From Squalus acanthias (Eukaryota), in the NCBI GenBank assembly GCA_030390025.1, contig CM059432.1:19408001-19472000 (forward strand): DNA of 64,000 bases. The letters run 5' to 3'. The notes beneath the pieces were generated by a model. The model saw nothing but the letters and a program-made list of their open reading frames with translations, had not been told where the DNA came from and ran no database searches. The translations under genes were made by a program, and so were the position numbers. Of the stretch, positions 3,546 to 61,753 are shown in pieces; positions within the stretch are counted from its first letter, which is position 1, and each line of letters starts with the position of its first letter.

Positions 3546-4940
3546 GTTAACTAACTTATCTGAATGTAGAGCCAGGAGGAGGAAGAGTGCTCCTCCCACT
3601 CCCACATTAAAGGAACTGATCGCTGCCACTCCCCCCGCCCCACCATCACCACCAGTCCTTCCCCTCACTTTGCCACCACTCCTGGCCCCGACCCCCGATT
3701 TCCCGGCCTCAATCCCCAGCCTGACTTAACCTTGATCCCAATCCCCGGACCAAACCCCTGGCTCCGAACCCTGGCCTGACCCGATCCCAGATCCAACCCC
3801 CAGCAAGGCCCCGACCAAACCGGTACCCAAACCACTGGAGCTACTTACCTGCGGGCCGCTGCGATGCTAGCAATGATCCGATCTTGCACTACTCTTCGGC
3901 GGCAGGCTCTGATGCCGCACCTGGCTCCATTACAATGAGGCACGCAGCCCAAAATCTGGTGATCCTCGGGCCTCACCATTCAGGCTCCGTACCCCACGAC
4001 TGCCCCCCCACCCCCCACCTACTGCCAAAAATGGGCATGCCAAATTTCTGGGCCACTGCTGGCAAAGTAGGTATCGTACCCAGCTGGTAGCACTTTTCCA
4101 CGGTCATGTGACTCTGGATTAGCTCCCAGGTCAGTCTAAAGTGACAAGTCCGACTAAAATTCCCTGGAACGGAAATGGCTTTTCTCATTGGGGATGTCAC
4201 TGGAGCAGCCAGGTTTTTATCCAGCCAGAAAATTCAATGTATTTTTTGTCAAACAGTGATGTAAATGCTTCGTAATTATTATATCTTTCTTGGATAAACA
4301 TTGGGGAAACACTTTGCAGAAAAAAATCGCAAAGACTTTCCTTCCTGAAACATTGTTTTATCAGCCTGTAATCATGTTGCTGATTATGTCCTCCTGGTTT
4401 TGCATAACAGACTTCTCCGCACACACTTAATCATAGAATCATAGAATCATTGAATGGTTACAGCACGGAAGAAGGCCATTCGGCCCGTTGAGCCCGTGCC
4501 GACTCTCAGCTAGTCCCACTCCCCCACCCTTTCCCCGTAGCCCTGCAAATTTCTTTCCTTCAGATACTTATCCAACCCCCTATTGAAAGCCACGATTGAG
4601 TCTGCCTCCACCACCCTTTCGGGCAGTGCATTCCAGATCTTAACCACTCGCTGCGTAAAAAAGTTTTTCTTACGTTGTGAAGGAATACATTATAACCTTT
4701 ATAGAAAAATATACTACATAAGATTAATACACTATAGCCTTTTTAGAAAAATACACCATATAACTTTTTTAAAGGAAGGCATGGCAAGCTGGATTTGGAA
4801 ATCCTACCTTCTGAAAGAATTCTGGCCTCGTTGAGATAAGACAGTGGTTAACCCTAAAGAGCACCTTATAAGGAACTCTACCTTATAAATTCTTTGGAAC
4901 ATAACAAACATTGGTTTGGAAATTTAGAAACCTAACTAAC

Positions 4941-6424
4941 CCATGGACTGGAGGGTAGCTAATGTAACCCCACTATTTAAAAAAGGTGGTAGAGAGAAAA
5001 CGGGGAATTATAGACCGGTAAGTCTGACATCGGTAGTGGGGAAAATGCTAGAGTCCATTATAAAAGATGTAATGGCAGAGCACTTGGAAAACAGTGACAG
5101 GATCGGACAAAGTCAACATGGATTTACAAAAGGTAAATCATGCTTGACTAATCTACTGGAATTTTTTGAGGATGTAACTGGTAGAATAGATGAGGGAGAA
5201 CCAGTGGATGTGGTGTATTTGGACTTTCAGAAGGCTTTCGATAAGGTCCCGCATAAGAGATTAGCGTGCAAAGCTAAAGCACATGGGATTGGGGGTAAGG
5301 TATTGTCTTGGATAGAGAACTGGTTGACAGACAGGAAGCAAAGAGTTGGAATAAACGGGTCTTTTTCCGAGTGCCAGGCAGTGACTAGTGGGGTACCGCA
5401 GGGCTCGGTGCTAGGACCCCAGCTATTCACAATATATATAAATGATCTAGACGAGGGAACTAGATGTAATATCTCCAAGTTTGCAGATGACACAAAGCTG
5501 GGTGGGCATGTGTGCAGTGAGGAGGATGCAGAGAAACTCCAGTATGATTTGGACAGGTTGGGTGATTGGGCAGATGCATGGCAAATGCAGTATAATGTGG
5601 ATAAATGTGAGGTTATCCACTTCGGTGGCAAAAATAGGAAGACAGATTATTATCTGAACGGCAATAGATTGGGAAAAGGGGAAGTGCAACGAGACCTGGG
5701 TGTCCTTGTGCACCAGTCGCTGAAGGTAAACATGCAGGTGCAGCAGGCGGTTAAGAAGGCAAATGGTATGTTGGCCTTCATAGTGAGAGGGTTCGAGTAC
5801 AGGAGCAAAGATGTCTTGCTGCAGTTGTACAGGGCCTTGGTGAGACCACACCTTGAGTATTGTGTGCAGTTTTGGTCACCTTATCTGAGGAAAGATGTTC
5901 TTGCCATGGAGAGAGTGCAGCGAAGATTCACTAGACTGATTCCTGGGATGGTAGGAATGACGTATGAGGAGAGATTGGGTCGATTAGGCTTATATTCGCT
6001 AGAGTTTAGAAGAATGAGAGGAGTTCTCATTGAAACTTATAAAATTCTAACAGGACTAGACAGACTAGATGCAGGGAGGATGTTCCTGATGGCGGGGGAG
6101 TCCAGAACCAGGGGTCACAGTTTAAGGATAAGGGGTAAGCCATTTAGGACTGAGATGAGGAGGAATTTCTTCACCCAGAGAGTAGTGAACCTGTGGAATT
6201 CTCTACCACACAAGGCAGTTGAGGCCAATTCATTAAATATATTCAAGAAGGAGTTAGATATATTTCTTAAGGCTAAAGGGATCAAGGGATCAAGGGATAT
6301 GGGGAGAAAGCAGGGACAGGGTACTGAATTTGGATGATCAGCCATGATCTCATTAAATGGCGGAACAGGCTCGAGGGGCTGAATGGCCTGCTCCTGCTCC
6401 TATCTTCTATGTTTCTATGTTTCT
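4941..6424 (+). mobile_element. Young CR1 (HER1-like) LINE, 5'-truncated
   Basis: Uninterrupted RT reading frame, CR1 3' UTR (GGCTCGAGGGGCTGAATGGCC) and (TTTCTATG)n tail. Confidence 0.92.
4943..6337 (+). pseudogene. CR1 ORF2 reverse transcriptase C-terminal 464 aa (no endonuclease domain)
   Basis: RT motifs NYRPVSLT, QHGF, YLDFQKAFDKVPH, GVPQGSVLGP, KFADD and DLGV. An 8-nt CAAGGGAT duplication near 6280 shifts the last codons relative to the sister copy at 40673-41316. Confidence 0.88.
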
Positions 6425-9400
6425 AAATAGCTATGAAAGAATACTGGCTATTGAAATAGGACAAGTTGTTGACCCTGAATAAATAACCTTATTGAAACAG
6501 AAGAATGGGTGGCCCTGAATGGGTAACCTTATTAAAACAAGACAATGGTCAGCCCTGGATGAATGATCTTGATTAAAACCTCTTGAGAATGACATGATGT
6601 AAGGTACATCTGCCCTTTGCCCACATATGGTAAACTCCCAATAGCTATTGATGATGTGGCAGTAAGAATTTCAGTAGGTCAGCTAAAGATGATTAGTGTT
6701 AATTAACTTGGATTAACAGAAACCTTATGAAAATAACTGAAAAAGAGGTATAAATATTGGAGTCTCGAATGAGAAAATCATACTCGTTTTAATCGAGCAA
6801 AGCGATTCTCGACTACAGGGCCGGCTCTGTAGTCCTTCACTCTTTTGTACCTCAGGGATCGAAGGTAATTTGATATTGATGGATATCCTGAATAGATACA
6901 TTTAAGAACTGTAATACTCTAGCGAAGTTAAGATTTAAAAGCACGATTCTCTGTTAAGAATAAGATTGTATTTTTTCTCTTTTAAAACTGTTAATGTTGC
7001 GATTGACTGATTCACCAACTCCAAATTGCATGTCTTTTTTTTAATAAATCTATATATATTTTTAGAATTGTCTCATATAAGTCTTCTGTATCAATAACTC
7101 GTGAACCCAATCTTTGTACACTCTTTGGTGAAGAGTTACAATTTCTGAAGGAAATCTCCGGACCCTCATAATATCCGAGACTTTACTGTCTGGCTAAACT
7201 TATTAAAAGTGCTATCTGGAGGACACTAACATTCTCGGGTTGTTCCTTTCCTTTAGGGAGAGATAACCCGGACCTTTAGACCTAGTTAAGCGTCTTTAGG
7301 ATTCGGCTACCTCGACCTTTAGTTGAAGGTGAACATCTGAGAAATACGCCTGATGTGGGATAGCCCCAAAGGGGCTAGGACAAGTAAAAATCCTTTCAAC
7401 GTCGCCTTTGGTTCTTTTGCCAATCACCTTAAATTTGTGTCCTCTTGTTCTTGACCCTTCCGCCAATGGGAACAGTTTCTCTCTATCTACTCTGTCCAGA
7501 CCCCTCATGATTTTGAACACCTCTATCAAATCTCCTCTCAATCTTCTCTGCTCCAAGGAGAACAACCCCAGCTTCTCCAGTCTATCAATGTAACTGAAGT
7601 CCATAATTCCTGGAATCATTCTCGTAAATCTTTTCTGCACCTTTTCTAAGGCCTTCACATCCTTCCTAAAGTGCGGTGCCCAGAATTGGACACAGTACTC
7701 TAGTTGGGGCCGAACCAGTGTTTTATACAGTTTCATCATAATTTCCACACTTTTGTACTCTATACCTCTATTTATGAAGCCCAGGATCCTGTAAGCCTTT
7801 TAACTGCTTTCTCAACCTGCCCTGCCACCTTCAACGATTTGTGTACATATGCCCCCCTGGTCTCTCTCTGTTCATGCACCCCCTTTAGGATTGTACCATT
7901 TAGTTTATATTTCCTCTCCTCATTCTTTCTACCAAAATGTATCACTTCACACTTTTCTGTGTTAAATTTCATCTGCCACGTGACTGCCCATTTCACCAAC
8001 CTGTTTATGTCTTCCTGAAGTCTATCACATTCCTCATCACTGTTCACTATATTTCCAAGTTTTGTGTCATCTGCAAATTTTGAAATTGTGCCCTGTATAC
8101 CCACATCCAAGTCATTAATATATATCAAGAAAAGCAGTGGTCCTAGAAGCGACCCCTGGGGAACACCACTGTATACCTTCCTCCAGTCCAAAAAAAAACG
8201 TTCACCACTACTCTCTGTTTCCTATCACTTAGCCAATTTTGTATCCATGCTGTCACTGTTCCTTTTATTCCATAGACTTCAACTTTGCTGGCGAGCCTAT
8301 TATGTGGCACTTTGTCGAACGCATTTTGGAAATCCATGTACACTATGTCAACTGCATTACCCTCATCAACCCTTTCTGTTACCTCATCAAAAAACTCGAT
8401 CAAGTTGGTTAAACACGATTTGCCTTTAACAAATCCATGCTGGCTTTCCTTAATTAATCCACCCTTATCCAAGTGACTGTTAATTTTGTCCCTGATTACT
8501 GTTTCTAAAAGCTTCCCCACTACCGAGGTTAAACTAACTGGCCTGTAGTTGCTGGGTTTATCTTTATACCCTTTTTTGAACAATGGTGTAACATTTGCAA
8601 TTCTCCAGTCCTCTGGCACCACCCCCGTATCTATGAAGGATTGGAATATTATGGCCAGTACCTCCGCGATTTCCGCCCTCAATTCCCTCAGCATCCTAGG
8701 ATATATCCCATCCGCTCCTGGTGATCTATCTACTTTAAGTACAGCCAGCCTTTCTCATACCTCTTCTTTATCAATTTTTGTCCTATTAAGTGTCTCCACT
8801 ACCTCCTCCTTCACTATGTCTATGGCAGCATCCTCTTCCTTGGTGAAGACAGATGCAAAGTACTCATTTAGAACCTCAACCATACCCTCTGCCTCCATGC
8901 ATAGGTCTCCTTTTTGTTCCCTAATCTTCCCCACCCCTCCTCTTACTACCAATTTACTTCGGGATTTAATATTTAAAAACCTCAGGGTAAATTGACAAGT
9001 GTGTGCCCCAAGCAGGGACCTGTGTCCAATGAGAGCACAGGTTGAGAATCAATGCATGCTACAGTGTTGTAGCCTTATCTCCGACTTACACTCTTTTCGA
9101 GTACAGCTCCCCACTGGGAGCACAGGATCAGTGAAGCGAGCCTTTTGTCTCAGCTCAGTCGTCTTCTTTGTTGATGGAAGCAGCTATGTCACTCCTCATA
9201 ACTAAATAACCTAAGGCCCCAAACCTTTCTTATTAACATTTATTCATCTATTTTATCTCAACATTTAAACATGGGGGTGGTGGGGGGCTATTAACTGCAC
9301 TGCATGATAATAAAACTCAGATTAAAAAGTGAACAAATTGGCAGAATGTTATCATCTATTGTTGGACAGATATTGAAGGGAAATCATTGACACTGTCTCA

Positions 9401-9941: not shown

Positions 9942-12250
9942 TAGCAACATAGGAAAGTAGGAACAGGAGTAGGCCATTTAGACCCTCGAGCCTGTTCCGC
10001 CATTCAATGAGATCATGGCTGATCTGCGACCTAACTCCAAATGCCCGCCTTTGGCCCATATCCCTTAATACCTTTGGTTAACAAAAATCTATCAATCTCA
10101 GATTTAAAATTAACAATTGATCTAGCATCAATTGCCATTTGCGTAAGAGAGTTCCAAACTTCTACCACCCTTTGTGTGTAGAAGTGTTTCCTAATTTCAC
10201 TCCTGAAAGGTCTGGCTCTAATTTTTAGATGATGCCCCCTAGTCCTAGAATCCCCAACCAGCGGAAATAGTTTCTCTCTATCTAATCTATCTGTTCCCCT
10301 TAATATCTTGAAAACTTCGATCAAATCACCCCAGCCCTTAACCTTCTAAATTCTAGGGAATACAACCCTAATTTGTGTAATCTCTCCTCATAATTTAATT
10401 CTTAGAGTCTGGGTATCATTCTGGTAAATCTACGCTGCACTCCCTCCAAGGCCAATATATCCTTCCTAAGGTGTGGTACCCAGAACTGCTCACAGTACTC
10501 CAGGTTTGATCTAACCAGGGTTTTGTATAGCTGCAGCATAACTTCTACCCCTTGTAGTCTAGTCCTCTAGATATAAAAGTCAGCATTCCATTAGCATTTT
10601 TGATTATTTTCTGTACCTGTTCATGATATTTTAATAATCTTTGTGCCCGGATCCCCAAGTCTCTTTGGCCCTTGTAAAATTTCCAAAATTTGCAGTTCCC
10701 CAAAAATATATCGAAAGGAAAAAAATAAGGACTTTGGAACTTTAAAGGAAACATGTCTGGACATGTACGGCACGTGGATTGTCTGGGAATCCAAAGCCCA
10801 GCAAACATTAACATTTGGACAATAGGCCCTGGGAAAAGGCCGCCCCACCCAAAACACAGAGCCCATAGGAATGCTAGGCCCAGCAAGGAACCCAAAGCAT
10901 GAGAACAATGCAAGCTTCCATGGAACAACAGCGCAACAGGATGTAAGCCATTTGATTTGGTTTAGCATAGTTGAAAGCCCATCAAAATTTAACAAGACAA
11001 TGAACAGGCCTCACCTGAAAACTCACTGCATTACGAAACCAGTTTTCGTGAGGAGTTTTTTTGCGGGGGGGCGATAAAGGACTATATCTGCAGCAGGACC
11101 CAAGAGCTCTTTCTCTTTTGACTCGCCGACCACGCCGGAACCCTCCCTCTCAGCTCTGCCCAGAAGCCACATGGTAAAGGAAGACATTCGATGACCAGAA
11201 TCACCATCGACTTACCTGGCTGGATTTCGTACTGTTAATACCCCTGTTTGGTGAGCATTATCCCTGATCTCCTGAAACCAAAACCTAGCTAGAAGTGGGA
11301 TTTTTGGGAGGGATAAAGGTTTTTTTCTTGTATACTGTCATTTTTCCCTCGCCTGTAACCGTGTGTTCCCCAAACCTGTTTAAGTGTGAAGTGTGTTTAA
11401 GTTTGTTACCCTTTAATTTTAATAAAAGTTATAGTTCTTTTCATTGGAACCTGTTGTCTACTGCATCTTTATTCACAACCCCTAAATAAGTCCAAGTTTT
11501 GAACCTGGGGTGTGGGAGCGATTCGAACCGCTCACTGAGTCAGGGGAAAGGCTGACCCCTACCACAACCACCCCCCTACACCCTCCACTGCTTTTAGCTT
11601 TTTACCATTTAGAAAATACCCTGTTCTATCCTTTTTAGATCTAAAGTGGATGACCTCACATTTGCCTACATTGAAATCCATTTGCCAGAGTTTTGCCCAT
11701 TCACTTAGTCTATCGATATCCCTTTGTAATTTTATGCTTTCATCTACACTGCCTACAATGCCGCCTATCTTTGTGTCAGCGGCAAATTTGGATATATGGC
11801 TTTCTATCCCATCATCTAGGTCGTTAATAAATACTGTGAATAGTTGAAGCCCCAACACAGATCCCTGCGGGACACCACTAGTCACATCCTGCCAATTAGA
11901 GCATCTGCCCATTATCCCTACTCTTTCTCTCCTGCCGCTCAGCCAATTTCCTAACCTCAACTTTCAGTTAACAATCTCTTATGTGGGACTTTATCAAATG
12001 CCTTCTGGAAGTCCATATAAATAACATCCATAGACATTCCCCTGTCCACTACTTTAGTCACCTCCTCAAAACATTCAATCAAGTTTGTCAGACATGACCT
12101 ACTTTTCACAAATCCATGCTGGCTCTCTCTGATCAGCTGAAAATGTTCAAGGTGTTCAGTCATCCTATTCTTAATTATAGACTCTAGCAATTTCCCGACA
12201 ACAGATGTTAGGCTAACTGGTCTATAATTCCTTGGTTTCCCTCTCTCACC
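9942..12250 (-). mobile_element. CR1 LINE, truncated and internally deleted; interrupted by a solo LTR
   Basis: ORF2 pieces QHGFVKSRSCLTNL, PQGSVLG, KFAAD and IEVFKILRG, plus a CR1 3' tail. Flanked by a CCATCTCA duplication. Confidence 0.88.
10673..11580 (+). mobile_element. Solo LTR (908 bp)
   Basis: TGTA...TACA ends with perfect 4-bp TSD CCCT (10669-10672, 11581-11584). Removing it restores the CR1 sequence. AATAAA at 11421. Confidence 0.88.
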
Positions 12251-13009
12251 ATCTCAGACATTGTGACGCCACATGGGCTAGATGGCGAGCTAGAGGCTAG
12301 GACAGCAATTGATGGCAGAGACAGCACAGGAGAGATCTCGCTGGAGGGCAAGGCCCTCTCCCAGCTCTGTTGAGGATGACAGAGATGAGGACTTCCAGGG
12401 CTCAGGTATCTGAGGTATTGGAAGGTGTGCCAAGGAATTTCACCACTATGGCTGAGAGTGTGGAGGAGTCTGCAGTCAGCCTCTGTGGTGCCTGTGCAGT
12501 TGTTGTAAATTAGCCTTGTTCAGTTACTTTAAGAAAATCTACCTCTGACTAAAATTACTTGCTTTGCGTTTTCAAAAGTTCAAAATCTTAGGGGAAGCTA
12601 TCTGTATCCTGAATAAATAGAAGGCCTCCCCTTACACTAGCAACTGTACCATGAGGCTGGAAGAAAGATGGGAAGGACAACTCACAAGAGTTATAAAACA
12701 GCATTGGCATGGGGGAGACTACAGAGCTTTAAATATATATTGCTAGTGCATTGGCAAAAGAAAAATCTTATCCCAGTACTGGGAACTGTAAAGTTTATGA
12801 TGCATTGGATTAATTGAACTGCTGTACAGTTTAACAGCTTGATTAAGAGCTGACTGGCTTGACTGTGACCATACCGTATAAGATTAGGTAATATGAGCAA
12901 TGAGAGAACATTAAAAATTGAAATCACATCAGCCCATACTTTAATATGTCTGTCTCTATCTATCTGAATTGACTTCACAAACATTTTATCATTTATACTG
13001 GATAGCTCA

Positions 13010-13620
13010 CAGCTTATTCCTGTGTGGAACCAGCACTGTTTTTCAACAGTAATGCCTTCCATTCACTCAATGTTCAACTTGTTTGTGATCACAGGCTGCA
13101 AGTCATGCAGGTCTGTGCCCGGTTTCCTGGTAATTATGACGCTTTCATACTGCACCAGTTCTCAATTTGGCCTCTGTTCCACCCAGAAGATTGGGTGGCA
13201 GGTTGGCTGCTGGGGGACCAGGGTTACAAACTGGCTCGTGATTCCTCTCAGGAACCTGGCCACAGATGCGGAGCGTCGATATAATGAGAGCCATGCAACA
13301 GCAAGGGTTCTGATTAAGCAAACCATTGGCGCCCTGAAACACTTGTTCCTCTGTCTGGGCAGCTCGAGAGGAGTCATTCAGTACAGCCCAGAGCGAATGT
13401 GAAGATTCATAATTATTTGCTGCATGCTCCATAATTTTGCAATACGAACGAGAGTTACCATGGAGCTTCCTGAGGAGGAAGAAGTGGAGCAGGAAGATGA
13501 AGAAGGAGATGAGAAGCCGAAGGATGGAGAGGAAGAGGGCTAAAATTCAAAGAGCTGAAATGGGTGAGCTGCCTGTGGAGGCACGCCAGATGCCGGCAGA
13601 TCGGCAAACTTATCAAAATG
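13010..13620 (+). pseudogene. Decayed Harbinger (DDE_Tnp_4-type) transposase, C-terminal half
   Basis: FHSLNVQLVCDH, ARFPGNYDAFIL, WLLGDQGY, ERRYNESH, QTIGALK, QYSPER, CCMLHNFAI and an acidic tail, colinear with the intact transposase. Has frameshifts and stops. Confidence 0.85.
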
Positions 13621-14045
13621 ATTATTCTGCGGTGAACTCCTCCAACCCCACCATCACCTGTTTATCTCATACTCTAAGGAACACTAAGGGGGAAAAATTA
13701 GGTCGCGCCCCGTTTGGGGCGCAAATATCGTCTGGACGCAAATATTAGCGCCTGCCGCTAATTATTGCCACTGACTGGAAACTTCAATTTACCGCCCCAG
13801 GAGGTGAGTGGAGCGCTAAATCAGGCGCTGCACACCTGTCTTAAGGCGCAAAGGCCGAGCAGTGAGGCGCTAACTCAGCGCGCGAGCGCAGCGCAGGTGC
13901 TACCAGTTAGCGAGGGAACACAGACACACTGGCGCCGGCCAGTTCTTAAAGCGGGGGGGGGCAACTTGCTCCCCAGTCACACCCTGCTCATTGCAGCCTT
14001 GAATCTCAGCCTGGAGAGACTTGTGAATCCATTTTGCTGCCAAGG

Positions 14046-15919
14046 ATGGAGAGGGTGAGAGAACGAGCTCATCGCTTCACCGAGCGGGCCTTGGATGCTC
14101 TGGTTGGCGCGGTGGAGCGCAGAAGATGTATACTCTTCCCTGAGAGTGGCAGGAGGCCTTTGCCACGCGAGTACAGAAGAGTGTGGAGGGAGGTGGCTCA
14201 GAGCGTCTCCTCCAGGAGCATGGTGCCCAGGACCCATGTTCAATGCCGCAAAAAGTTCAACGACCTCACTCGGGTCGTCAGGGTGAGTGGCTTTTTCTCA
14301 ATACCTCTCCATCCCTCCATCTCAACCTCACTCTATGGCCAGAGGGTCTTAAAACCCCAATGCACAACACTCATCCAACACCTATGGCCCTTTCATGAAA
14401 CACACACACACATTCCACACTTTGCATACAGTAAGGGCTATTCACCTATGGCAGGCACATCAGGCAAGACCATGGCTGCATACAGTAAGGGCTATTCACC
14501 TATGGGAGGCACATCAGGCAAGACCATGGCTGTATACAGTAAGGGCTATTCACCTATGGGAGGCACATCAGGCAAGACCATGGCTGTATATTTACTCAGA
14601 TGCTGTCCTTTTTCTTGCAGGCCAAGCTGGCGCATAATAGGAGACAGCAGCAACGGACAGGTGGAGGGCGGCCTCAGCTGCAACCCCTCAGCGATCTTGA
14701 GGAGCGCGTCCACAGGATTGTGGCAAGCCGGGTGATCGGTCCCGTCGCCACTGGAGACGCCGACCCCGTTCTGGACAGCAATGGTAAGGTCATCACCTTT
14801 TTGTCCTCTGTCCTTCCACTTGTCCCTCACAACACCAGCCTTTGACACTTTCAATCCAACTTGCTAACTCGCTGCACTTATTCCTCCCTTACTGCCACCC
14901 TGTCCTCACGCTAAAGCCACTCTTGTACCTCCCTGCTTTCAGATGGTGATTCACCAGCTGAGGAGACGGGCCCTGAAGCTGCCACTGGGAGTGAAGCTGC
15001 AGCCGAGGAGGAAGAGGAAGCCGGAGCATCAGTGCCACCCTCTCCCGAGGAAGCCCATGCCCACACTGGGAACACGCCTTCCCTGGAGGGGAGCAGGGGG
15101 GAAGGGTCTGATGAGGGTGAAGCTCCAGGACCCAGTGGGCTGCAGCAACGCCATGGGGGTAGGGAAGAACGGGGGCCTTCTCCCCAGAGGGAGAGTATGC
15201 CAGAGACTCCTACTGCAATGGACGCAGAGGAGGAGCGGCTGATCGCAGAAATGAACACCCAGGCGGTGGGCATGCACACTGAGCTCATGGGTGCAGTGGG
15301 AAGGGTGCCCGAATGCATTGAGTCACTGGCAAGGAGTGTGGAGCACTTCGCTGTAGCACAGGCGGATGCCACACTAACGCTTAGTGCTGCAATTCAGTCA
15401 CTGACTGCCGTGATCCCATCTCTGACTGCTCTCATGCAGACTCAGATTGAGGCCACACGAGCACTGACTGCTGCCAACCTCGATGGTTCGTTCACATGTC
15501 CCCGGGGCTCTCACCACGCCGCAGCAGGCCAGCAATCTGTGCTCCAGCAGATTGCTCCGGATGCTGAAGTGCTGCCCCGTGGGAGTGCCAGTGTGTCGGG
15601 CGAGCAGGGAGTTGCTGTCCTCTCTCACGATGACAGCATTCCTGCTGCCAACACTGTCACTTCTCCACTGCACTTGCCACCGCCTGTAGGACAGACTGCT
15701 GCCGCCCATGCAGAGTTGGTGCAGTCTGCAGCCGGGCCCTCCAGGCCCAGAACTGGTCGAGGCCGTCCTTCAGGGGCATCTGCAGTGTCAGGGTTTGACG
15801 ATCAGCAGCCTTCCACCAGCCTTGCTGCAGCCACTGAGGTCCCATTACGAAGGAGCAGTAGGGTTAGAAGAGGGGAAGTGCGCAAGGGAAGGAGATCACA
15901 CTCGAAGGGCAAAAAGTAG
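14046..15919 (+). CDS. Harbinger Myb/SANT (trihelix-like) DNA-binding protein; 3 exons 14046-14282, 14621-14783, 14943-15919; ~458 aa
   Basis: Exon 1 encodes RFTERALDALV..W.EVA..VS....RT..QCRKKFNDL. Donors AGG|GTGAGT and G|GTAAGG; acceptors TTTTCTTGCAG| and CTGCTTTCAG|. Phases 0 and 1 join in frame (237+163+977=1377 nt). Exon 2 has KLAHNRRQQQRTGGG. Basic C-terminus RRGEVRKGRRSHSKGKK. Splicing is inferred. Confidence 0.85.
14423..14584 (+). repeat. 3 x 54-bp near-perfect tandem repeat in intron 1 of the Myb gene
   Basis: TGYATACAGTAAGGGCTATTCACCTATGGSAGGCACATCAGGCAAGACCATGGC starting at 14423, 14477 and 14531. Confidence 0.95.
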
Positions 15920-16231
15920 GAGGTGTGACAAAATGCTGGTCATTTTTTTATTAAAGGCCGAGGTTCGTGGTCCAACTTTTGTTTAGTGTTTTGGACATTA
16001 TCTCCAGGTTGTGAGAACCAGTTATGTTATTGACTGTTTTTTTGTGTTTATTTCTATGAGTTTGTCATGAGGAAATGACACACACAGAGTTTGTAAAATA
16101 AATAAGTTTCTGTATTCAAAATATACATGTTTGGTGTTTGGAATTATTGGTGCCTTGGCCGGCTTAGGGGTTGCGTGCTGGGTTCATTGATGTTGTTAGC
16201 AATGGCAGAAGCCATTTCCACAGCAGGGGCC

Positions 16232-17389
16232 CTAGAAGCGGCTTGCTATCAGCCGTTGACGGACGGCCCTTGCAGTTTCACCATTGTGGGCCGCCCTCCC
16301 GCCTTGGTGCTGCTGATGATCATCCTCCTCGTCCTCTTCCTCCTCTTCCTCCTCCTCTGGTGGTGCTCCAAGGCTTGGTGGCATTGGCTGGGTCCTGACG
16401 ATTGCCATGTTATGCAACATGCAGCACACAACTACGAAGTTGGATACTCGCTCAGGCGAGTACTGCAGGGCTCCTCCAGAATGGTCGAGACAGCGGAACC
16501 GTTGCTTCAGCACGCCGATTGTGCGCTCAATGATGTTCCTGGTAGCTTGATGGCTCTCATTGTACCGCAGCTCAGCAGGGGTGTTGGGCGTACGGAGCGG
16601 TGTCATCAGCCAGGTGCTCAATGGATACCCCTTGTCCCCGAGAAGCCAACCAACTGGCTGATGCGGTGCCTCGAAAAGTTCTGCCACAGTAGTCTGGCGC
16701 AGGATGAAAGCATCGTGGCAGCTGCCAGGATAGTGGGCATTGACAGCGAGTATCAGCTGTCTGTGGTCACAGACCAACTGAACATTCAAGGAATGGAACC
16801 CCTTTCTGTTCCGGAATTCCTCGGCATTCTCATGTGGAGCACGCAAAGCCACATGCGTGCAGTCAATGGCGCCCTGCACCATGGGGAAGCCCGCTATCCT
16901 CGCAAAGCCCAGAGCGCGGTCACGCTGCTTGTCTGGGGTCATGGGGAAAGAGATGAACTCTCGTCTCCTTTTAAAGAGGGCATTTGTGACCTGCCGGATG
17001 CAGCAATGCACCGTGAACTGGGAGATATTGGCGAGGTCCCCAGCAGCAGCTTGAAATGAGCCAGTAGCATAGAAGTTGAGAGCCACTGTGACCTTCACTG
17101 CCACCGACAGAGACGTCCTGGACCTCAGTTGAGGCTGCAGATCTGGCTGCAGCAGGTGGCAGAGCTCAGTGACCACCTCCTTGCTGAATCGCAGCCTTCG
17201 CAAACACAGCTCCTCAGACATATGAATGTAGGAGAGCTGTTCACGATATACCCTGGGAGGGTAAGCTCTCCTGTACATACGCCTGTTGGCCCTCCTCCGT
17301 CTGGCCATCATTGCCACTCTCTCTCTGCGTCTCTGTGTCCTCCGATTCAGCTGGAGCAGGACGACGCCCCCAATCAGTGCAGCCCCCAT
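16232..17389 (-). CDS. Harbinger DDE transposase (HARBI1-like family), single exon, 385 aa from the ATG at 17389
   Basis: Uninterrupted ORF with HTH-like region (KVTVALNFYATGSFQ..GD..ISQ.TV..CI) and catalytic motifs GAIDCTH, LLGDKGY and RNIIERTIGVLK, plus an acidic tail. The MGAAL start matches MGAVL in the sister copy at 39501. Confidence 0.93.
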   Translation of the reverse strand: MGAALIGGVVLLQLNRRTQRRRERVAMMARRRRANRRMYRRAYPPRVYREQLSYIHMSEELCLRRLRFSKEVVTELCHLLQPDLQPQLRSRTSLSVAVKVTVALNFYATGSFQAAAGDLANISQFTVHCCIRQVTNALFKRRREFISFPMTPDKQRDRALGFARIAGFPMVQGAIDCTHVALRAPHENAEEFRNRKGFHSLNVQLVCDHRQLILAVNAHYPGSCHDAFILRQTTVAELFEAPHQPVGWLLGDKGYPLSTWLMTPLRTPNTPAELRYNESHQATRNIIERTIGVLKQRFRCLDHSGGALQYSPERVSNFVVVCCMLHNMAIVRTQPMPPSLGAPPEEEEEEEEDEEDDHQQHQGGRAAHNGETARAVRQRLIASRF

Positions 17390-17583
17390 AGTCTCTTTGC
17401 AAGCAAAGTTATGAAGGACAGCAACCAAAGTAGCAGCGAAGTTAGGATCAGTAGGCAAAACTACCTCACAAAGCGTTGACTCAATGCAGAAGTCTCTCTT
17501 TCTCTCTCTCCGAATCTCTCTCTCTCTCTCAGAACGAGTGGTGCAAAAATGTCAACCACAGAAAAAGACAGGAAGAGGCCCCC

Positions 17584-17591
17584 TTTAAATA
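17584..17591 (-). promoter_or_regulatory. Candidate TATA box of the transposase gene
   Basis: TATTTAAA ~195 nt upstream of the ATG. The sister copy has TATATAAA at 39317-39324 in the same GCGCTA context and at similar spacing. Confidence 0.5.
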
Positions 17592-18149
17592 GCGCCCCCC
17601 CCCCAGCCCCACAGCGATTGATAGCGTTCCAGTCTTCTGGTCGTTAGATGCGCCAGGCGGTAAGGCAGGGGGCACCACTCAATTTCTGCTCCGGGGCGCC
17701 ACAAGGGCGTTGCACCATGGAATGACGTCACAATCTGCGCGCGCAGGTGGTCGCGGCGGTAAAGTTTAGCGCCGCCGCACAATGTCTAGTTAAGTTCCTG
17801 AGCGGCGCAAACATCGCTGCGCCCGGGCGCTAGCGGCTTTGCGCCCCATTAGCGCCCTCTTAAGGCACTAACGGGAGGCGCAACCAACTGAATTTTTACC
17901 CTTAAGCTTTTAAACAGATACATTTTCAATTGTTCTTCTCAACATTTTTCTCTTGTTCCTCCTGAGGTCTCCTAACACAACTTCTTGATTGAACTCCTCT
18001 TTACAACCTTCTGCTAGAATCAGTTTGGCTTAGTTGGTAGCACTGTTGCCTTTGAGTTAGAAGATTGTGGATCCAACAGATGAATTACACTAACACATCA
18101 GTGTAAAACTGAAGGAATTCGGCATTGTTGAAGGTGGTGTCTTTGGATA

Positions 18150-21250: not shown

Positions 21251-21712
21251 GGGGTAAAAATTGGGTAGCGCCCCGAAAAAGTTAGCGCCCCCGTGGCCGA
21301 TTTTCCCACATTGCGCCCCGAGAGGGAGGAGGGGCGCTACTGGAAGCACCCCGTGTCCCTCTTGGGGCGCTGCGAGGCAATATTGCGGCACTATGTGCCG
21401 CGGTACTGCAGGCCTTCCTCCCCTTATTAAAGGGGAGGGGCCTGGCGCAGCGCGTCCCGGCGCCCAGCTGGGCCACCAGGGATCGGGAGTGCCGGCAAAC
21501 AAGCCTGGCACTCAAGGGGAGTGCCGGGCTCACGGAGAGCAGCCGGCACCCCACGGGGGGACTTCACGGGGGGCTGGGGACAGCAACGGGGGCAGGTGCT
21601 GGCAGGCGGACAGCAACAAAAATGGCCGCCCGCCACCTCCCCTTTAACTAGCGCCGCCCCGGCCACAGGTAGGGCGCTAACGGGAGGCGCAAATCAACCG
21701 AATTTAGCCCCC
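21251..21712. mobile_element. Harbinger-type MITE related to the intact element
   Basis: Ends GGGGTAAAAATT / AATTTAGCCCCC with flanks TCA/TTA. Right subterminus GGCGCTAACGGGAGGCGCAA is shared with 17864-17883. Confidence 0.75.
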
Positions 21713-22595: not shown

Positions 22596-23343
22596 GGGCT
22601 AGAAATTCCCCTCGAGCCCCGTTTGGGGCGCTAATTCAGAAAGGCTGGAAATGTTAGCGCCAGACGCTAGCCTCTTCCAGCCTTTCTAAAATTCCCACTT
22701 TATAAGAGTGAAGTGGAGAGCTAAATCAAGCGCTCCACTTCCTTCTTGGAGCGCAAGAGGGGGGGAAGTTCACGACCCAGGGCGCACGGCTCAGGAGCGC
22801 CACGCACTGGGGCGCTGACACGTTGCAGGGGCTCTTCCCTGAATTAAAGGGAAGGGTCCCACACTGCAAACTCTGCAGTTCTTTTTATAACTTACCTGCA
22901 GCACTGGAGAGCTGGGGTGCCGCGCGACCAGCCCGACACTCAAGCAGTGTGCCGGGCTGACCGACCACAGCACGGATCCCGCGTCCGGAGCAAAAAATAC
23001 ATTTTTTAAAAAAGCCGACATTGTTTTCAGGGTGGCTGGCCACCTCACCTTTAACTTCCGTCCCGCTAGCGGCCAGCCGCCCTGCTCGCGTCCCCTGCCA
23101 TCGCCCAGCGCTGCTGCAGGGGGCGAAGGGAAATTTATCTGCCAGACGCTACCGGGGTGATGCGCCCGGAGATGACATCATGATCTCTGGACGCATGAGA
23201 TCGGGGCGCACCCCGGTAGCGCCGCCGCTAACCTCCCGCGGAATTTGGCGGGAGGAACGCTCAGCGCCGCGGCTGGGCAAATAGGCCTTTGTGTCCCATT
23301 AGTGCCCCCCAAGGGAGGCGCAAAGGAGGGGAATTTCTCCCCC
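22596..23343. mobile_element. Harbinger-type MITE related to the intact element
   Basis: 18-bp imperfect TIR GGGCTAGAAATTCCCCTC / GAGGGGAATTTCTCCCCC. Left CCCCGTTTGGGGCGC and right GGGAGGCGCAA are shared with 13688-17902. Confidence 0.78.
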
Positions 23344-24127
23344 AAAGTGTTGGTTTGCTGTATCCCTGCAGTGCTTAAATAATCCAGCTCCAAAAAATGG
23401 GGATTTAATTATTCATATATTCAGCAGAAGTCTTGTAACCCAATTGATTTTGGTTGTCGTCCTTCAGACCTTGCACTTCTATGTGTGTTTGATGCTATCA
23501 AGCATGTTGAATTATTTAAAATACAATTTGTTCCCAGTGACAATGACCAATACTATAGAACTACTCCTCAAGGCTGCTTTACCCACTTTGTCTGTTGTCA
23601 GCCTGCCCTTATTGGGTTATACAGACTTGCTAATGTGTTTATGAGTGACAGGTATTGATCAGGGAGTTATTCAGCTAAATAAATGTTTGACAACTTGAAT
23701 TGCAAGTCTTCAAGCAACACATTGATGTTATTTATTCAAACTATTCCGTGTGTTGCAAAGATTTTATCGATAATGCACTTGAGGATTGCTGTTGTGTCTC
23801 AGAGATGTTTTGCAGTCCAATAATTATATTGAGGAGCCAAGTACGAGCTCGAGCATTTTTGTATCAGCAAAACAAAGCAGCTAATGAAGCAAGTGTGACG
23901 TGTCAGAAAGTAATTGTCTTAACTCAAGTTTTGCCGAACTCAACAATGTAAACTAGACCAGATGCCCTCTTACTGTATGTAATTCCATTCTTCTACAAGT
24001 GTATGGCTTTTCTTGATAAAAGTATAAGTTCTACTATGGCATAGGGTTGAATACTATACAATGTTTTGTAAACTAGGTGGCAGCAACACACCTAGTTTAC
24101 AAACAATTGAGGAGCTTGGAGAAAATA

Positions 24128-25067
24128 GATATGAATGTAGGAGGTATGATCAGTAAGTTCGCAGATGACACGAAAATTGGTGGAGTGGTAAATAGCGAGG
24201 AGGGAAGCCTCAGGCTACAGGACAATATAGACGGGATGGTCAGATGGGCAGAACAGTGGCAAATGGAATTTAACCCTGAAAAGTGTGAGGTGATGCATTT
24301 TGGGAGGACTAACAAGGCAAGGGAATACACAATGAATGGTAGGATCCGAGGAAGGACAGAGGATCAGAGGGACCTTGGTGTGCATGTACATAGATCCCTG
24401 AAGGCAGCAGGACAGGTAGATAAGGTGGTTAAAAAGGCATATGGGATACTTGCCTTCATTAGCCGAGGCATAGAATATAAGAGCAGGGAGGTTATGATGG
24501 AGCTGTACAAAACGCTAGTTAGGCCACAGCTGGAATACTGTGTGCAGTTCTGGTCGCCACACTATAGGAAGGATGTGATTGCATTGGAGAGGGTGCAGAG
24601 GAGATTCACCAGGATGTTACCTGGGCTGGAGCGCTTCAGCTATGAAGAGAGACTGGACAGGCTGGGGTTGTTTTCCTTAGAGCAGAGAAGGCTGAGGGGG
24701 GACCTGATTGAGGTGTACAAAATTATGAGGGGCATAGATAGGGTAGATAGAAAGGAACTTTTCCCCTTAGTAGAGGAGTCAATAACCAGGGGGCATAGTT
24801 TCAAGGTATGGGCAGGAGGTTTAGAGGGGATTTGAGGAAAAACTTTTTCACCCAGAGGGTGGTTGGAATCTCGAACTCACTGCCCGAAAGGGTGATAGAG
24901 GCAGGAACCCTCACAACATTCAAGAAGCATTTAGATGAGCACTTGAAACGCCATAGCATACAAGGCTACGGACCAAGTGCTGGAAAATGGGATTAGAATA
25001 GACAGGGCTTGATGGCCGGCGCAGACACGATGGGCCGAAGGGCCTCTTTCTGTGCTGTATAACTCTA
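24128..25067 (+). mobile_element. CR1 LINE 3' fragment
   Basis: ISKFADD..YCVQFWSPH..GDLIEVYKIM with a frameshift near 24808, followed by a CR1 3' UTR. Confidence 0.9.
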
Positions 25068-25815: not shown

Positions 25816-26578
25816 GGGCCAAAAATTCGGCACTTGCCGGGTGAGTACGCACTGTGTACTCACCCGTAAGGCCTCCTGAAGTGCTGGTTTCCTGCATGCA
25901 CTGCGCATGCGCGGGAAACCGGAACTTCCGGTCTCGTGAAGGGAGCGGTTCAGAGGTGAACCGTGTGCGCAGTAGAGGCTGCGCGCACGCAGCAAACTTG
26001 TGTTTTTTTTCAGGTTTCTCCGGGAGGGTAAGTATGGAAGAACCTGTGCTTTTAAAAAGGAGGCACAAGACCCGTTTTCAACAAGGTAAGTGGTTAATTA
26101 ATTATAATTAAAAAAAATGTCAACAGATTTATCTTTTTTAGATACTTTAAAGAAAGGTAAGTTTATTTTTAGCACTGTTAAAAAGTATTTTAATTTTTTC
26201 AAAAATTTAAATTTTTGTTTAAAGTAGTTAATTTATTTAATTTATAGTTATTTTTAAAATGTGATGTTTTTTTAAAATTTATTTGAAGTTTAGCTGTTGT
26301 TTTGGGACCGATTTCAATTCATAGATTTGACAGGTCTTCCTGTCAAATCTATGAATGAAAGATGGTCTGCTGCCATTGGCTCTCCATGGCCCACGTGATC
26401 CCAGGGGACGCATCGCACTAACTACGCCCCTGGGACACGCAAGCACTGCACGCCGGCAGTTAGGGCAGGCCCAGGAGCTGAAGTCCCCGTGGGCCAGAAG
26501 CAGAACGGCAGACGTGGTAGGTAAGTGCGCGCGCGATCCTTACCCCCGCGGCAAGCCGGAGAGGTGAATTTCTGGGCC
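25816..26578. mobile_element. Harbinger-type MITE
   Basis: Ends GGGCCAAAAATTC / GAATTTCTGGGCC with perfect TSD AAT (25813-25815, 26579-26581). Confidence 0.78.
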
Positions 26579-26756
26579 AATGTCACTGTTATTTGGAATG
26601 TCCAAGGAGCTCTGTCTACACTGCTTATGCTTTACTTGGGAGGCCGTCTTGGAACTTTGACATGTCTTCCAGCCAGACCTGGTTCAATAAGGAGTGTAGA
26701 AGAGCATGCCAGGAGCAGCACCAGGCGTACTTAAAAATAAATTAAAAATTAAAAAT

Positions 26757-28708
26757 AAGGTGCCAACCTGGGGAAGCTGCAACACAGGACTACATGCATG
26801 CTAAAAAGTGGAAGCAGCATGCTATTGGCAGGGCTAAGCGATCCCACAATCAACGATCAGATCAAAGCTCTGCAGTCCTGCCACATCCAGTCGTGAATGG
26901 TGGTGAACCATTAAACAACTAACGGGAGGAGGAGGCTCCATGAATATCCCCATCCTCAATGATAGTGGAGCCCAGCATGTGAGTGCAAAAGACAAGGCTG
27001 AAACATTTGCAACCATCTTCAGCCAGAAGTGCCGAGTGGATGATCCATATTGGCCTACTCTTGAGGTCCCCACCATCACAGAAGCCAGTCTTCAGCCAAT
27101 TCAATTCAGTCCACGTGATATCAAGAAACGGCTGAGCGCACTGGATACAGCAAAGGCTATGGGCCCCGACAACATACATGCTATCGTGCTGAAGACTTGT
27201 GCTCCAGAACTAGCCGCACCTCTAGCCAAGCTGTTCCAGTACAGCTACAACACTGGCATCTTACCGACAATATGGAAAACTGCCCAGGTATGTCCTGTCC
27301 ACAAAAAAGGCAGGACAAATCCAACCCGGCCAATTACCACCCCATCAGTCTACTCTCAATCATCAGCAAAGTGATGGAAGGTGTTATCGACAGTGCTATC
27401 AAGCAGCACTGACTCACCAATAGCCTGCTCACTGATGCCCAGTTTGGGTTCCGCCAAGACCACTCGGCTACCGACCTCATTACAGCCTTGGTCCAAAAAT
27501 GGACAAAGGAGCTGAATTCCAGAGGTGAGGTGAGAGTAACTGCCCTTGACTTCAAGGCAGCATTTGACCGAGTGTGGCATCAAGGAGCCCTAGTAAAACT
27601 GAAGTCAATGGGATTCGGGGGGAAAACACTCCATTGGCTGGAGTCATACCTAGCACAAAGGAAAATGGTTGTGGTGGTTGAAGTTCAATTATCACATCCC
27701 CAGGACATCGCTGCAGGACTTCCTCAGGGTAGTGTCCTAGGCCCAACCATCTTCAGCTGCTTCATCAATGACCTTCCTTCCAACATAAGGTCAGAAATGG
27801 GGATGTTCGCTGATGACTGCACAGTGTTCAGCGCCATTCACAACTCCTCAAATAATGAAGCAGTCCATGCCCACATGCAACAAGACCTGGACGACGTTCA
27901 GGCTTGGGCTGATAAGTGGCAGGTAACATTCGCGCCACAGAAGTGCCAATCAATGACTATCTGCAACAAGCGAGAGTCTAACCACCTCCACTTGACATTC
28001 AACGGTATTACCATCACCGAATCCCCCACCATCAACATCCTGGGGGTTACCATTGACTAGAAACTTAACTGGACCAGCCACATAAATACTGTGGCAAATA
28101 GCAGGTCTGAGGCTAGGTATTCTGCGGCAAGTGTCTCACCTCCTGACTCCCCAAAGCCTTTCCACCATTTACAAGGCACAAGTAAGGAGTGTGATGGAAT
28201 ACCCTCCACTTTCCTGGATGAGTGCAGCTTCAACAACACTCAAGAAGCTCGACACCATCCAGGAGAAAGCAGCCCGCTTGATTGGCACCCCATCCACCAC
28301 CTTAAACTTTCACTCTCTCCACCACCGGCGTACCGTGGCTGCAGTGTGTACCATCTACAAGATGCACTGCAGCAACTCGCCAAGGTTTCTTCGGCAGCAC
28401 CTCCCAAACCCGTGACCTCTACCACCTGGAAGGACAAGGGCAGCAGGAGCATGGGAACACCACCACTTCCAAGTTCCCCTCCAAGTCACACACCATCCTG
28501 ACTTAGAAGTATATCGCCGATCCTTCATCGTCGCTGGGCCAAAATCCTGGAACTCCCTCCCGAACAGCACTGTGGGAGTACCTTCACCACACGGACTGCA
28601 GTGGTTCAAGAAGGCGGCTCACCACCACCTTCTCAAGGGCAATTAGGGATGGGCAATAAATGCTGGTCTTGCCAGCGACGCCCACATCCCATAAACGAAT
28701 AAAAATTA
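26757..28708 (+). mobile_element. Second non-LTR LINE family (CR1/Jockey-group RT, clade unresolved), 5'-truncated and frameshifted
   Basis: KAMGPDNI, NYHPISLLS, QFGFR, ALDFKAAFDRVWH, PQGSVLGP and MFADD, ending in an A-rich tail. Confidence 0.88.
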
Positions 28709-29500: not shown

Positions 29501-29864
29501 ACACAAATTCACAAGGGTATAAATGTAGGGGGTGAATTTCCGCAGGGTTGCTCCTGCTTATCCACCCTAACTTTGACAGAAGTGCCGTGGACGTCCCTGA
29601 AAAAGGTATAAAGAGAGCTTACGCTGTTTTTGGGGGTTTCCGTGGCTTTTCTGCCGAAGGTACAGTGGACGATTGGGAGACACCCCGTAGAAATCCCACC
29701 CCCCCCACCCCCCCACCCAGTATTCAACAGACATACCAAAACAAAGACTCCACTCTCTGGATAGGTCTGAGTCAGTCCTGCAGTACAAGCCCAGAAAGAT
29801 CTCCTAAATGATAAGGGCGTGCTATCTGCTGCCTTATTATACTAACAGGGTAGAATATATGAAG

Positions 29865-37645: not shown

Positions 37646-37647
37646 GA

Positions 37648-47566: not shown

Positions 47567-47636
47567 GGATTGTATCTCTGCAGACACATTGTTCTCTGTC
47601 TATATATGCTTTGTAACTGATTTGTATTCCCTCACT

Positions 47637-60859: not shown

Positions 60860-61753
60860 GGGGGAAAAATTCAGTCGCGCCCCATTTGGGGCGCAAATAT
60901 CGTCCGGGCGCAAAGATTAGTGCCTGGCGCTAATTATCGCCACTGACTGGAAACTTCACTTTTAACGCCCCGGGAGGTGATTGGAGTGCTAAATCAGGCG
61001 CTGCACACCTGTCTTAAGGCGCAAAGGCCGAGGAGTGAGGCGCTAACTCAGAGCGCTGGCGAAGCTCATGTAATGTCAGCCAGCAATGGAACACACACAC
61101 AATGGCACGGGCCAGTTCTTAAAGGGGATGGTTGATCTTGCTTTCCATTCACATCCTGCTAATTGCAGCCTTGAATCTCGGCCTGGAGAGACCTGCATAT
61201 CAAATCTGCTGGAAAGAACAATGGAGAGTACCAGGCAAAGAGCTCAGAGTGCAGCCCCCACAGTCTCTTCTAAATCGATACAAGGAATGGCAAATCAAAA
61301 TGAACCTGCAAAGTGCTGCTAAGTAGCCAAAACTCCTTCACACAACGTTGAATCTCTCCAGAAGTCTCTCTCACTCTCTCTCAGAATGCGTAGTTTAAAA
61401 ATGGCACCAACAATAAAAGGCAGGAAGCGGTCACCTTTAAATAGCGCTCCCCCTTTCCCTTCATGACAGAAGAACGCTCCTATCAACCTGTCATTGCTAG
61501 CGTCAGGCGGTAAGGCAGGGGGCGCCACTCAATATCCGCTCCGGGGCGATACCGGGGCGTTGCACACTCGTCTGACGTCACGATCTGCCGGCGCAGGAGA
61601 TCATGGCGGTAGTGTTTAGCGCCGCCGCAAAATGTCTAGTTAATTTCGTGAGCGGCGCAAACTTCGCCGCGCCCGGGCATTATGCTGCTTTGCGTCCCAT
61701 TAGCGCCCTCTTAAGGCGCTAACGGGAGGCGCAACCAACTGAATTTTTCCCCC
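60860..61753. mobile_element. Non-autonomous internal-deletion derivative of the 13688-17902 Harbinger family (894 bp)
   Basis: Perfect 16-bp TIR GGGGGAAAAATTCAGT and TSD ACT. Left part aligns with 13688-14071 and right part with 17376-17902. Confidence 0.92.

What the first reader, a model, noticed from the sequence alone, without database searches (positions are those of the whole stretch)
14046..15919. Hidden three-exon Myb/SANT gene that the ORF track shows as three unrelated ORFs
Seen: canonical GT-AG introns at 14283-14620 and 14784-14942 join the 14034, 14600 and 15032 ORFs into one 1377-nt frame (458 aa). The product has a SANT/trihelix domain, a RTGGG motif, an acidic low-complexity linker, an amphipathic helical segment (LARSVEHFAVAQADATLTLSAAIQSLTAVI..LTALMQ) and a basic NLS-like tail. 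Inference: the helical segment may mediate oligomerisation or transposase binding.
Basis: partly seen in the sequence, partly recalled or inferred. Interest (0 to 1): 0.7.

Follow-up and report, generated by a model that had tools for sequence, protein, structure and literature searches.

The report
Shark Harbinger transposon's Myb helper gene
This is a real three-exon gene, but it is the usual DNA-binding helper of a two-gene jumping element, here in an apparently intact copy probably from a shark or ray, so it is a new example of a known kind.

Summary
The splice model holds: GT-AG introns 14283-14620 and 14784-14942 give a 1377-nt frame (458 aa), and exon 1 matches Pfam Myb_DNA-bind_5 (E 6e-10). 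An open frame alone is weak, since 65,077 of 263,270 in-phase splice combinations are also open. Stronger support: the spliced form beats intron read-through against 65 of 69 relatives, relatives' annotated isoforms break at both junctions, and one contig joins exon 2 to exon 3.

The gene is the Myb-like partner of a 4,215-bp PIF/Harbinger element (13688-17902) with 12-bp inverted ends, a TAA duplication and a convergent 385-aa DDE transposase with an intact triad. A GGCGCWAA motif crowds its ends and those of related short elements (26 matches against 2 expected). The closest relatives are from sharks and rays.

The helical segment is longer than first reported (aa 228-313) and has heptad periodicity, so it is a likely coiled coil; its partner is inferred. 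Verdict: a new member of a known kind, in a lineage where such elements are poorly described.

The parts
13685..13687 (.). Left copy of the 3-bp target-site duplication TAA, preceded by C
13688..17902 (.). Full-length PIF/Harbinger-type element, 4,215 bp, with two convergent genes
13688..13699 (+). Left terminal inverted repeat (12 bp; 10 of 12 match the right end, 12 of 16 when extended)
13718..13873 (.). Four left subterminal GGCGCWAA motifs (13718, 13745, 13845, 13866); candidate Myb binding sites (inferred)
13946..13951 (+). TATA-like TTAAAG about 100 nt before the Myb ATG, also seen in related left ends (promoter role inferred)
14046..14282 (+). Myb gene exon 1 (aa 1-79): Myb/SANT-like trihelix domain
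   Evidence: no ATG upstream inside the element
14283..14620 (+). Intron 1 (338 nt, phase 0, GT-AG)
14423..14590 (.). 54-bp tandem repeat, 3.1 copies, inside intron 1; some contigs carry a short unrelated stretch in place of 14463-14606
   Evidence: joints
14621..14783 (+). Exon 2 (aa 80-133 plus one base): end of the long third helix, RTGGG, and a conserved L..LEE helix
   Evidence: the model of relative P0005 has helix 124-152 crossing junction 1
14784..14942 (+). Intron 2 (159 nt, phase 1, GT-AG)
   Evidence: exon 2-exon 3 loose end in run X1
14943..15919 (+). Exon 3 (aa 134-458, stop): acidic disordered linker, long helix, Pro/Ala/Ser linker, basic tail
15224..15481 (+). Predicted 86-residue helix (aa 228-313) with 3.5-residue hydrophobic period; likely coiled coil; a short helix (aa 323-337) follows at 15509-15553
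15842..15916 (+). Basic tail (aa 434-458, 12 K+R), candidate nuclear localisation signal (inferred)
16047..16102 (.). Convergent poly(A)-signal candidates: AATAAA on + at 16097 and on - at 16047-16052 (a further candidate on each strand near 15950)
16232..17389 (-). Harbinger/HARBI1-like transposase, one open frame of 385 aa; DDE triad D176, D226, E288
17584..17596 (-). TATA-like TATTTAAA overlapped by a GGCGCTA motif upstream of the transposase; kept in two related right ends (promoter role inferred)
17766..17856 (.). Four right subterminal GGCGCWAA motifs (17766, 17804, 17838, 17849)
17891..17902 (-). Right terminal inverted repeat; differs from the left end at positions 1 and 5
17903..17905 (.). 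Right copy of the target-site duplication TAA, followed by G
60860..61753 (.). 894-bp non-coding relative made of the element's two ends (83% and 75% identical), with 12-bp TIRs and a perfect ACT duplication

Best explanation
The three-exon gene encodes the Myb-like accessory protein of an autonomous-type PIF/Harbinger cut-and-paste transposon at 13688-17902, probably in a shark or ray genome. Shown here: the gene model by homology, the convergent transposase with its DDE triad, the inverted ends, the TAA duplication, the repeated subterminal motif and related non-coding elements. Inferred from the known family: the N-terminal trihelix domain binds the GGCGCWAA motifs at both ends, the protein binds the transposase and carries it into the nucleus with its basic tail, and the transposase cuts the element out and inserts it at a new site with a 3-bp duplication; the same two proteins move the short non-coding relatives. 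Inferred from sequence: the aa 228-313 helix forms a coiled coil, most likely self-association that lets the protein bind several motifs or bridge the two ends, and it may also carry the transposase contact.
For: Gene model: Pfam Myb hit. The spliced form scores higher than read-through for 65 of 69 relatives that aligned to both (73 tested, 4 aligned to neither), and 60 of 69 align to aa 100 or beyond. Exon 2 alone is 48% identical to P0005 and starts at the residue after its Myb domain. P0005 aligns over aa 5-444 at 38%. Annotated isoforms of relatives diverge at the junction-1 position (P0200) and at about the junction-2 position (P0196 versus P0009; P0002, P0003). The 11 loose letters before 14942 in run X1 equal 14772-14782 and occur once in the window. 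Element: TIRs and TAA duplication; transposase PF13359 E 3.3e-40 with D176, D226, E288; GGCGCWAA 26 times against 2.05 expected, 0 of 100 shuffles reaching it, 25 of 26 inside Harbinger-type ends; laid contigs span a range of identities (X1: 107/184/251/97 of 639 at 99+/95-99/90-95/under 90), as a multicopy family would. All 6 indel rows listed fall outside both reading frames. Host: the 77 best transposase relatives all carry shark or ray names, and the transposase nests among them in a quick tree of 38 rows. Helix: pLDDT 77-95 over most of it, period 3.5, 0 of 500 shuffles. Mechanism in relatives: PMC9710019, PMC9392472, PMC5339849.
Against: No read evidence for junction 1; junction 2 rests on one contig end; no joint row matches either intron, and several contigs are unspliced, so the RNA evidence is thin and the runs may hold DNA. 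Only 24 of 370 loose-end rows and 40 of 276 difference rows were shown. Acceptor 14620 is not uniquely best by my rough score. Exon 3 alone found no relative in the 5.8-billion search and only 9 of 85 relatives at E<=0.01 in a local comparison. The right TIR differs from the left at its terminal base, and of 15 displayed coding differences between this copy and the laid contigs 10 change an amino acid and 5 do not, so this copy may be drifting and need not be mobile. DNA binding, nuclear import and transposition were not measured.
Confidence: 0.9

Rival explanations
1. A domesticated host gene pair (like NAIF1 with HARBI1, or an MSANTD gene) that no longer moves and works as a transcription or chromatin factor.
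For: Both frames are intact. Harbinger Myb genes were domesticated repeatedly in vertebrates (PMC9392472). Some relatives look fixed in their hosts: P0009, P0196 and P0197 are 96-99% identical across three ray genera.
Against: TIRs, a perfect duplication and subterminal motifs are still present. A close non-coding derivative lies in the same window. Contigs of several identity classes cover the element. Amino-acid-changing differences outnumber silent ones 10 to 5 among those shown.
Confidence: 0.04
2. The element is real but this copy is silent or dead; the three-exon structure is inherited from the active ancestor, and the locus yields mostly unspliced or no transcript.
For: Most contigs shown at the splice sites are unspliced. 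The right terminus has a mismatch, and the copy differs at several sites from what all four runs read. Three other transposase relics in the window are broken.
Against: Neither frame has a stop or frameshift, the triad is intact, and one spliced contig end exists, though it may come from another copy. This rival concerns activity only and is compatible with the identity given in the best explanation.
Confidence: 0.45
3. The gene is real but spliced differently, or it is only exon 1 with read-through into intron 1 (229 aa), and the three-exon join is chance.
For: A quarter of in-phase splice combinations keep an open frame. Exon 1 does read through to 14735. No read spans junction 1.
Against: Read-through scores higher for only 2 of 69 relatives (P0059, P0067), with 2 ties. 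Homology stops at the donor in the read-through form and continues in the spliced form. The long third helix needs exon 2. Relatives' isoforms break at the same places.
Confidence: 0.04

Closest known systems
PIF/Harbinger (PHIS) autonomous elements, e.g. zebrafish Harbinger3_DR
   Same: Two genes (DDE transposase plus Myb/SANT protein), short TIRs beginning with G or A, a 3-bp duplication, about 4.2 kb (mean about 4.1 kb in PMC4482050), and a repeated subterminal motif like the 9-bp site bound by the Harbinger3_DR Myb protein (PMC9710019).
   Different: The Myb protein is longer (458 aa against about 300-400 aa in PMC9710019) and carries an 86-residue heptad helix; searches found no paper describing such a helix in Harbinger Myb proteins. 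TIRs are shorter than the usual 25-50 bp (PMC9179366). Activity is untested.
NuwaII group of PHIS elements (PMC4482050)
   Same: The target reads C|TAA|G, matching C|TNA|G; DDE_Tnp_4 plus Myb/SANT; no separate HTH Pfam hit. By eye, the DDE blocks and their 23-residue spacer resemble the NuwaII-4_XTro and NuwaI-2_DRer rows of the paper's Figure S3.
   Different: The closest non-coding relative in the window has a perfect ACT duplication, which is not TNA. TAA also fits the TWA rule of PIF/Harbinger proper. No tree with Nuwa references was built. The paper lists no shark host.
Shark and ray proteins annotated 'putative nuclease HARBI1' and 'MYPOP-like' or uncharacterized (e.g. Pristiophorus P0074, P0005, P0004; Heptranchias P0008, P0016)
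   Same: Transposase up to 67% identical. The Myb relatives share the whole layout: trihelix, TGGG, acidic linker, long helix, low-complexity tail.
   Different: They are annotated as host genes with no element context in the tools. This protein's helical region is shorter than that of P0005 and P0004.
Domesticated pairs NAIF1/HARBI1, MSANTD1-4, Arabidopsis HDP1/HDP2
   Same: Same two protein families. In HDP2 the C-terminal region binds the N-terminal region of the transposase-derived HDP1 (PMC5339849).
   Different: Those are fixed, syntenic host genes (PMC9392472); this pair sits between TIRs with a duplication and has mobile-type relatives.

Membership tests
PIF/Harbinger (PHIS) autonomous element | DDE_Tnp_4 transposase with the catalytic D, D, E | tested here: met
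   PF13359 E 3.3e-40; D176, D226, E288, the commonest residue in each column of a 51-row alignment (43, 33 and 29 of 51)
PIF/Harbinger (PHIS) autonomous element | Second gene encoding a Myb/SANT-like protein | tested here: met
   PF13873 E 6.3e-10 on exon 1; whole-length relatives
PIF/Harbinger (PHIS) autonomous element | Terminal inverted repeats | tested here: met
   12 bp, 10 of 12 matching; the same ends on the 894-bp relative
PIF/Harbinger (PHIS) autonomous element | 3-bp target-site duplication | tested here: met
   TAA/TAA; the 894-bp relative has ACT/ACT; two more distant units are imperfect (TCA/TTA, CAA/AAA), so 2 of 4 are perfect
PIF/Harbinger (PHIS) autonomous element | Repeated subterminal motif bound by the Myb protein | tested here: inconclusive
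   Motif enrichment shown (26 against 2.05 expected; the motif was chosen from these ends, so part of the excess is by construction); binding itself not testable
PIF/Harbinger (PHIS) autonomous element | Both proteins required for excision and insertion; Myb-dependent nuclear import | not testable with these tools
   Known for Harbinger3_DR and the rice elements at second hand
NuwaII group | C|TNA|G target preference across copies | tested here: inconclusive
   This copy C|TAA|G; closest relative C|ACT|A; only four bounded units available
NuwaII group | Transposase falls in the Nuwa clade | not tested
   Only a by-eye resemblance to Figure S3 of PMC4482050; the tree held no Nuwa reference
Domesticated Harbinger Myb gene (NAIF1/MSANTD type) | Loss of transposon ends; fixed single locus | tested here: not met
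   TIRs, duplication, motifs and a close non-coding derivative are present
Domesticated Harbinger Myb gene (NAIF1/MSANTD type) | Conserved synteny and purifying selection across species | not testable with these tools
   No genome held for the window; no eukaryote loci available

The most novel reading that the evidence does not exclude
A young, still competent Harbinger family of sharks and rays has spread almost unchanged across several host species, possibly by horizontal transfer: 14 runs under 7 organism labels in 7 studies hold 58-71% of the sampled words, and laid pieces of 150-670 nt are mostly 98-100% alike. Its ends accept both TNA and ANT targets, blurring the duplication-based split of PHIS groups, and its Myb partner uses a long coiled coil, not found described for this superfamily in my searches, to pair the two ends. 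It would be a natural intact vertebrate Harbinger for structural and transposition work. How related the 7 hosts are is unknown, and slow shark evolution could give the same identities.
Probability: 0.15. Interest if true: 0.6.

Novelty: new member of a known kind. Interest (0 to 1): 0.3.

Why it matters
The gene type and its mechanism are known. Its modest value lies in the host and the completeness. A 2015 survey called PHIS elements absent from sharks, though its genome list appears to include the elephant shark as the cartilaginous fish (PMC4482050), and a 2022 paper asked for other cartilaginous fishes to be tested (PMC9179366). Genome papers have since listed PIF-Harbinger in whale shark and grey reef shark by repeat class only (PMC8455134, PMC12498223). 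This window gives a defined element with ends, duplication, both genes, intron positions and a candidate binding motif. It also suggests that many shark and ray 'HARBI1' and 'MYPOP-like' gene models are transposon copies. No solved structure matched either protein by sequence, so an intact natural pair is a usable substrate.

Tried and rejected
Complex prediction of transposase aa 1-340 with the exon-3 helix (Myb aa 224-342): no answer, score 0.00 in both runs, alignments not used, controls not folded; no evidence either way. The single job went to this pair, so self-association of the helix was not folded.

Read depth and flank cover: cover is low or absent in the two flank bins and higher at the element's ends, but contigs cannot show absence or level, so I did not use this for boundaries, copy number or horizontal transfer.

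Exon 3 against 5.8 billion proteins: 0 hits among 8,000 candidates. ESM Atlas on the helix: best score 0.83, below the level worth weight. Foldseek of the P0005 model: no match at E<=0.001, only generic long helices and weak Myb-like folds. PDB by sequence: nothing meaningful for either protein. Rfam: 0 matches. The sigma-70 scan is irrelevant to a eukaryote. More copies for target-site statistics: none in metagenome or viral contigs, and no genome is held. Earlier findings: 3 look-ups, nothing. The careful tree did not finish; the quick tree of 37 of the 120 listed relatives plus the query is used. A 5-bp duplication reading (CTAAG/TTAAG) was considered: it needs one mismatch here and one in the 894-bp relative, where the 3-bp reading is perfect, so 3 bp is preferred. 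PMC7998251 proved irrelevant.

Full report
Observation. The introns and the 458-aa frame are as described. Exon 1 matches Myb_DNA-bind_5 above its curated cut-off; exons 2 and 3 match nothing in Pfam. Frame continuity is weak evidence, because 65,077 of 263,270 in-phase two-intron combinations also stay open. By a rough score built from recalled frequencies, the chosen donors rank first and second of 48, and the acceptors first and joint second of 104.

Homology test. Exon 1 found 73 relatives among 1.84 billion representatives. Of these, 69 aligned to both the spliced and the read-through product; the spliced form scored higher in 65, lower in 2 and equal in 2, and 60 alignments reached aa 100 or beyond. 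The best, P0005 from a sawshark, aligns over aa 5-444 at 38%. In its model one helix (124-152) crosses the position of intron 1. Annotated isoforms of relatives break where these introns lie: P0200 jumps into the residue that starts exon 2, P0196 has an insertion relative to P0009 at about junction 2, and P0002 and P0003 switch continuation there. These are gene models, not my own read evidence.

Reads. Fourteen of 20 listed runs hold at least half of the sampled words. I laid 4 of the 20. One loose end in X1 before 14942 equals the last letters of exon 2 and occurs once in the window, which is junction 2. Against this, no joint row matches either intron, and contigs of X1, X2 and X3 run unspliced into or across the introns. 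The RNA label of these runs is a guess, and most loose-end rows (346 of 370) were not shown. Junction 1 therefore rests on homology and splice signals.

Context. A 385-aa transposase lies on the minus strand at 16232-17389, converging on the Myb gene, with D176, D226 and E288 in place. The pair is bounded by 12-bp inverted repeats at 13688 and 17902 and a TAA duplication in the setting C|TAA|G. GGCGCWAA occurs four times near each end and 26 times in the window against 2.05 expected; 25 of the 26 lie in the ends of this element or of related units at 21251-21712, 22596-23343, from 39020 on, and 60860-61753. The motif was picked from this element's ends, so its recurrence in the other units is the fairer evidence: 17 of the 18 remaining matches. 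The 894-bp unit is simply the two ends joined, with a perfect ACT duplication. Laid contigs fall into several identity classes, as expected of a multicopy family, and the 6 indels listed are all outside the reading frames.

Host. The 77 best transposase relatives carry shark or ray names, up to 67% identical, and a quick tree places the query among them. The window's long frames outside the element look like LINE-type retroelement fragments (recognised from recalled motifs). A shark or ray host is an inference from relatives.

Protein anatomy. Trihelix domain (aa 1-92), RTGGG, a conserved short helix (about aa 104-116), an acidic disordered linker (134-227), a long helix (228-313) plus a short one (323-337), a low-complexity linker and a basic tail (434-458). 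The long helix has a 3.5-residue hydrophobic period (0 of 500 shuffles; 3.54 across the 16-row alignment), strongest in aa 228-270. Three heptad columns are hydrophobic, a pattern that from general knowledge favours trimers or tetramers over dimers; this is inference.

Mechanism. From Harbinger3_DR, cited at second hand because the original paper is not held: the Myb-like protein binds a subterminal motif through its trihelix, binds the transposase's N-terminal end and brings it into the nucleus, and both genes are needed (PMC9710019, PMC9392472, PMC3158080). In HDP1/HDP2 the Myb protein's C-terminal region makes the contact (PMC5339849). I carry this over to the present element (about 0.9 for identity and general working). 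For the long helix I put self-association at about 0.65 and a direct transposase contact at about 0.45; the two are not exclusive. Whether this copy can still move is open (about even): both frames are whole, but the right end has a terminal mismatch, and 10 of 15 displayed coding differences change a residue (40 of 276 rows were shown).

Comparison and novelty. The element meets the testable marks of an autonomous PIF/Harbinger element. NuwaII membership is open: this target fits, the closest relative's does not, and no reference tree was built. It is not a domesticated MSANTD/NAIF1-type gene. Searches for a described shark or ray Harbinger element returned only repeat-class mentions and the two absence statements; searches for a coiled coil in Harbinger Myb proteins returned nothing relevant. 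The library lacks most subscription papers, Repbase and Dfam were not available, and the genome papers' repeat supplements were not read, so the family may already be catalogued.

Papers seen. PMC9179366: first of six parts and passages. PMC9392472: passages and Introduction. PMC9710019: passages and Background. PMC4482050: passages, parts 2 and 3 of 4, a search of three supplements and supplement 2 whole. PMC12498223, PMC8455134, PMC5381603, PMC13668399, PMC5339849, PMC3158080, PMC7998251: passages only. Sinzelle 2008 and Smith 2012: not seen.

Verdict. Observation confirmed; interpretation partly supported; new member of a known kind; interest 0.3.

Noticed in passing
proteins P0096, P0097, P0140; P0118, P0119; P0084, P0085; P0077, P0078: Several HARBI1-like groups are 84-90% identical between distant sharks and rays (for example sawfish, catshark and bamboo shark at 88-90%). 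They may be cartilaginous-fish-specific domesticated transposases, or transferred elements; synteny was not testable.
   Followed up: partly
proteins P0009, P0196, P0197: A Myb relative of this gene is 96-99% identical across three ray genera, each listed on one contig, with several annotated isoforms: a candidate domesticated Harbinger Myb gene in rays.
   Followed up: partly
window 13039-13540 (+): Broken older Harbinger transposase (48-54% identical in pieces) ending about 150 bp before the element's left end; the young element may have inserted into or beside an older one.
   Followed up: partly
window 39020-40540 (+): Truncated relative: one TIR-like end, subterminal motifs, a TATA box and a transposase about 70% identical with stops and a frameshift; no Myb gene detected.
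   Followed up: partly
window 21251-21712 and 22596-23343: Two more non-coding units (462 and 748 bp) with the same type of end and motif and imperfect 3-bp duplications.
   Followed up: partly
window 26454-26681, 29013-29831, 37624-37818: Further small Harbinger transposase fragments.
   Followed up: no
window 17584-17596 (-): A GGCGCTA motif overlaps the TATA-like box of the transposase gene, and a similar arrangement is kept in two related ends; the Myb protein might regulate its own transposase.
   Followed up: no
window 15919-16232: The two genes' 3' regions converge and their poly(A) signal candidates overlap by about 50 nt, which could give double-stranded RNA.
   Followed up: no
proteins P0081, P0002, P0003: Public gene models that fuse a Myb domain to a transposase (P0081) or chain several Myb exon pairs (P0002, P0003); probably annotation across neighbouring copies.
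   Followed up: no
window 4940-6337, 7772-8754, 11559-12253, 24077-24835, 27413-28060, 40762-41439, 45565-47599: Long frames that look like reverse-transcriptase retroelement fragments by recalled motifs; not searched.
   Followed up: no
window 48139-48500: G-rich tandem array with a period of about 27-30 nt.
   Followed up: no
window 52660-52667: The one GGCGCWAA match outside a recognised element end.
   Followed up: no
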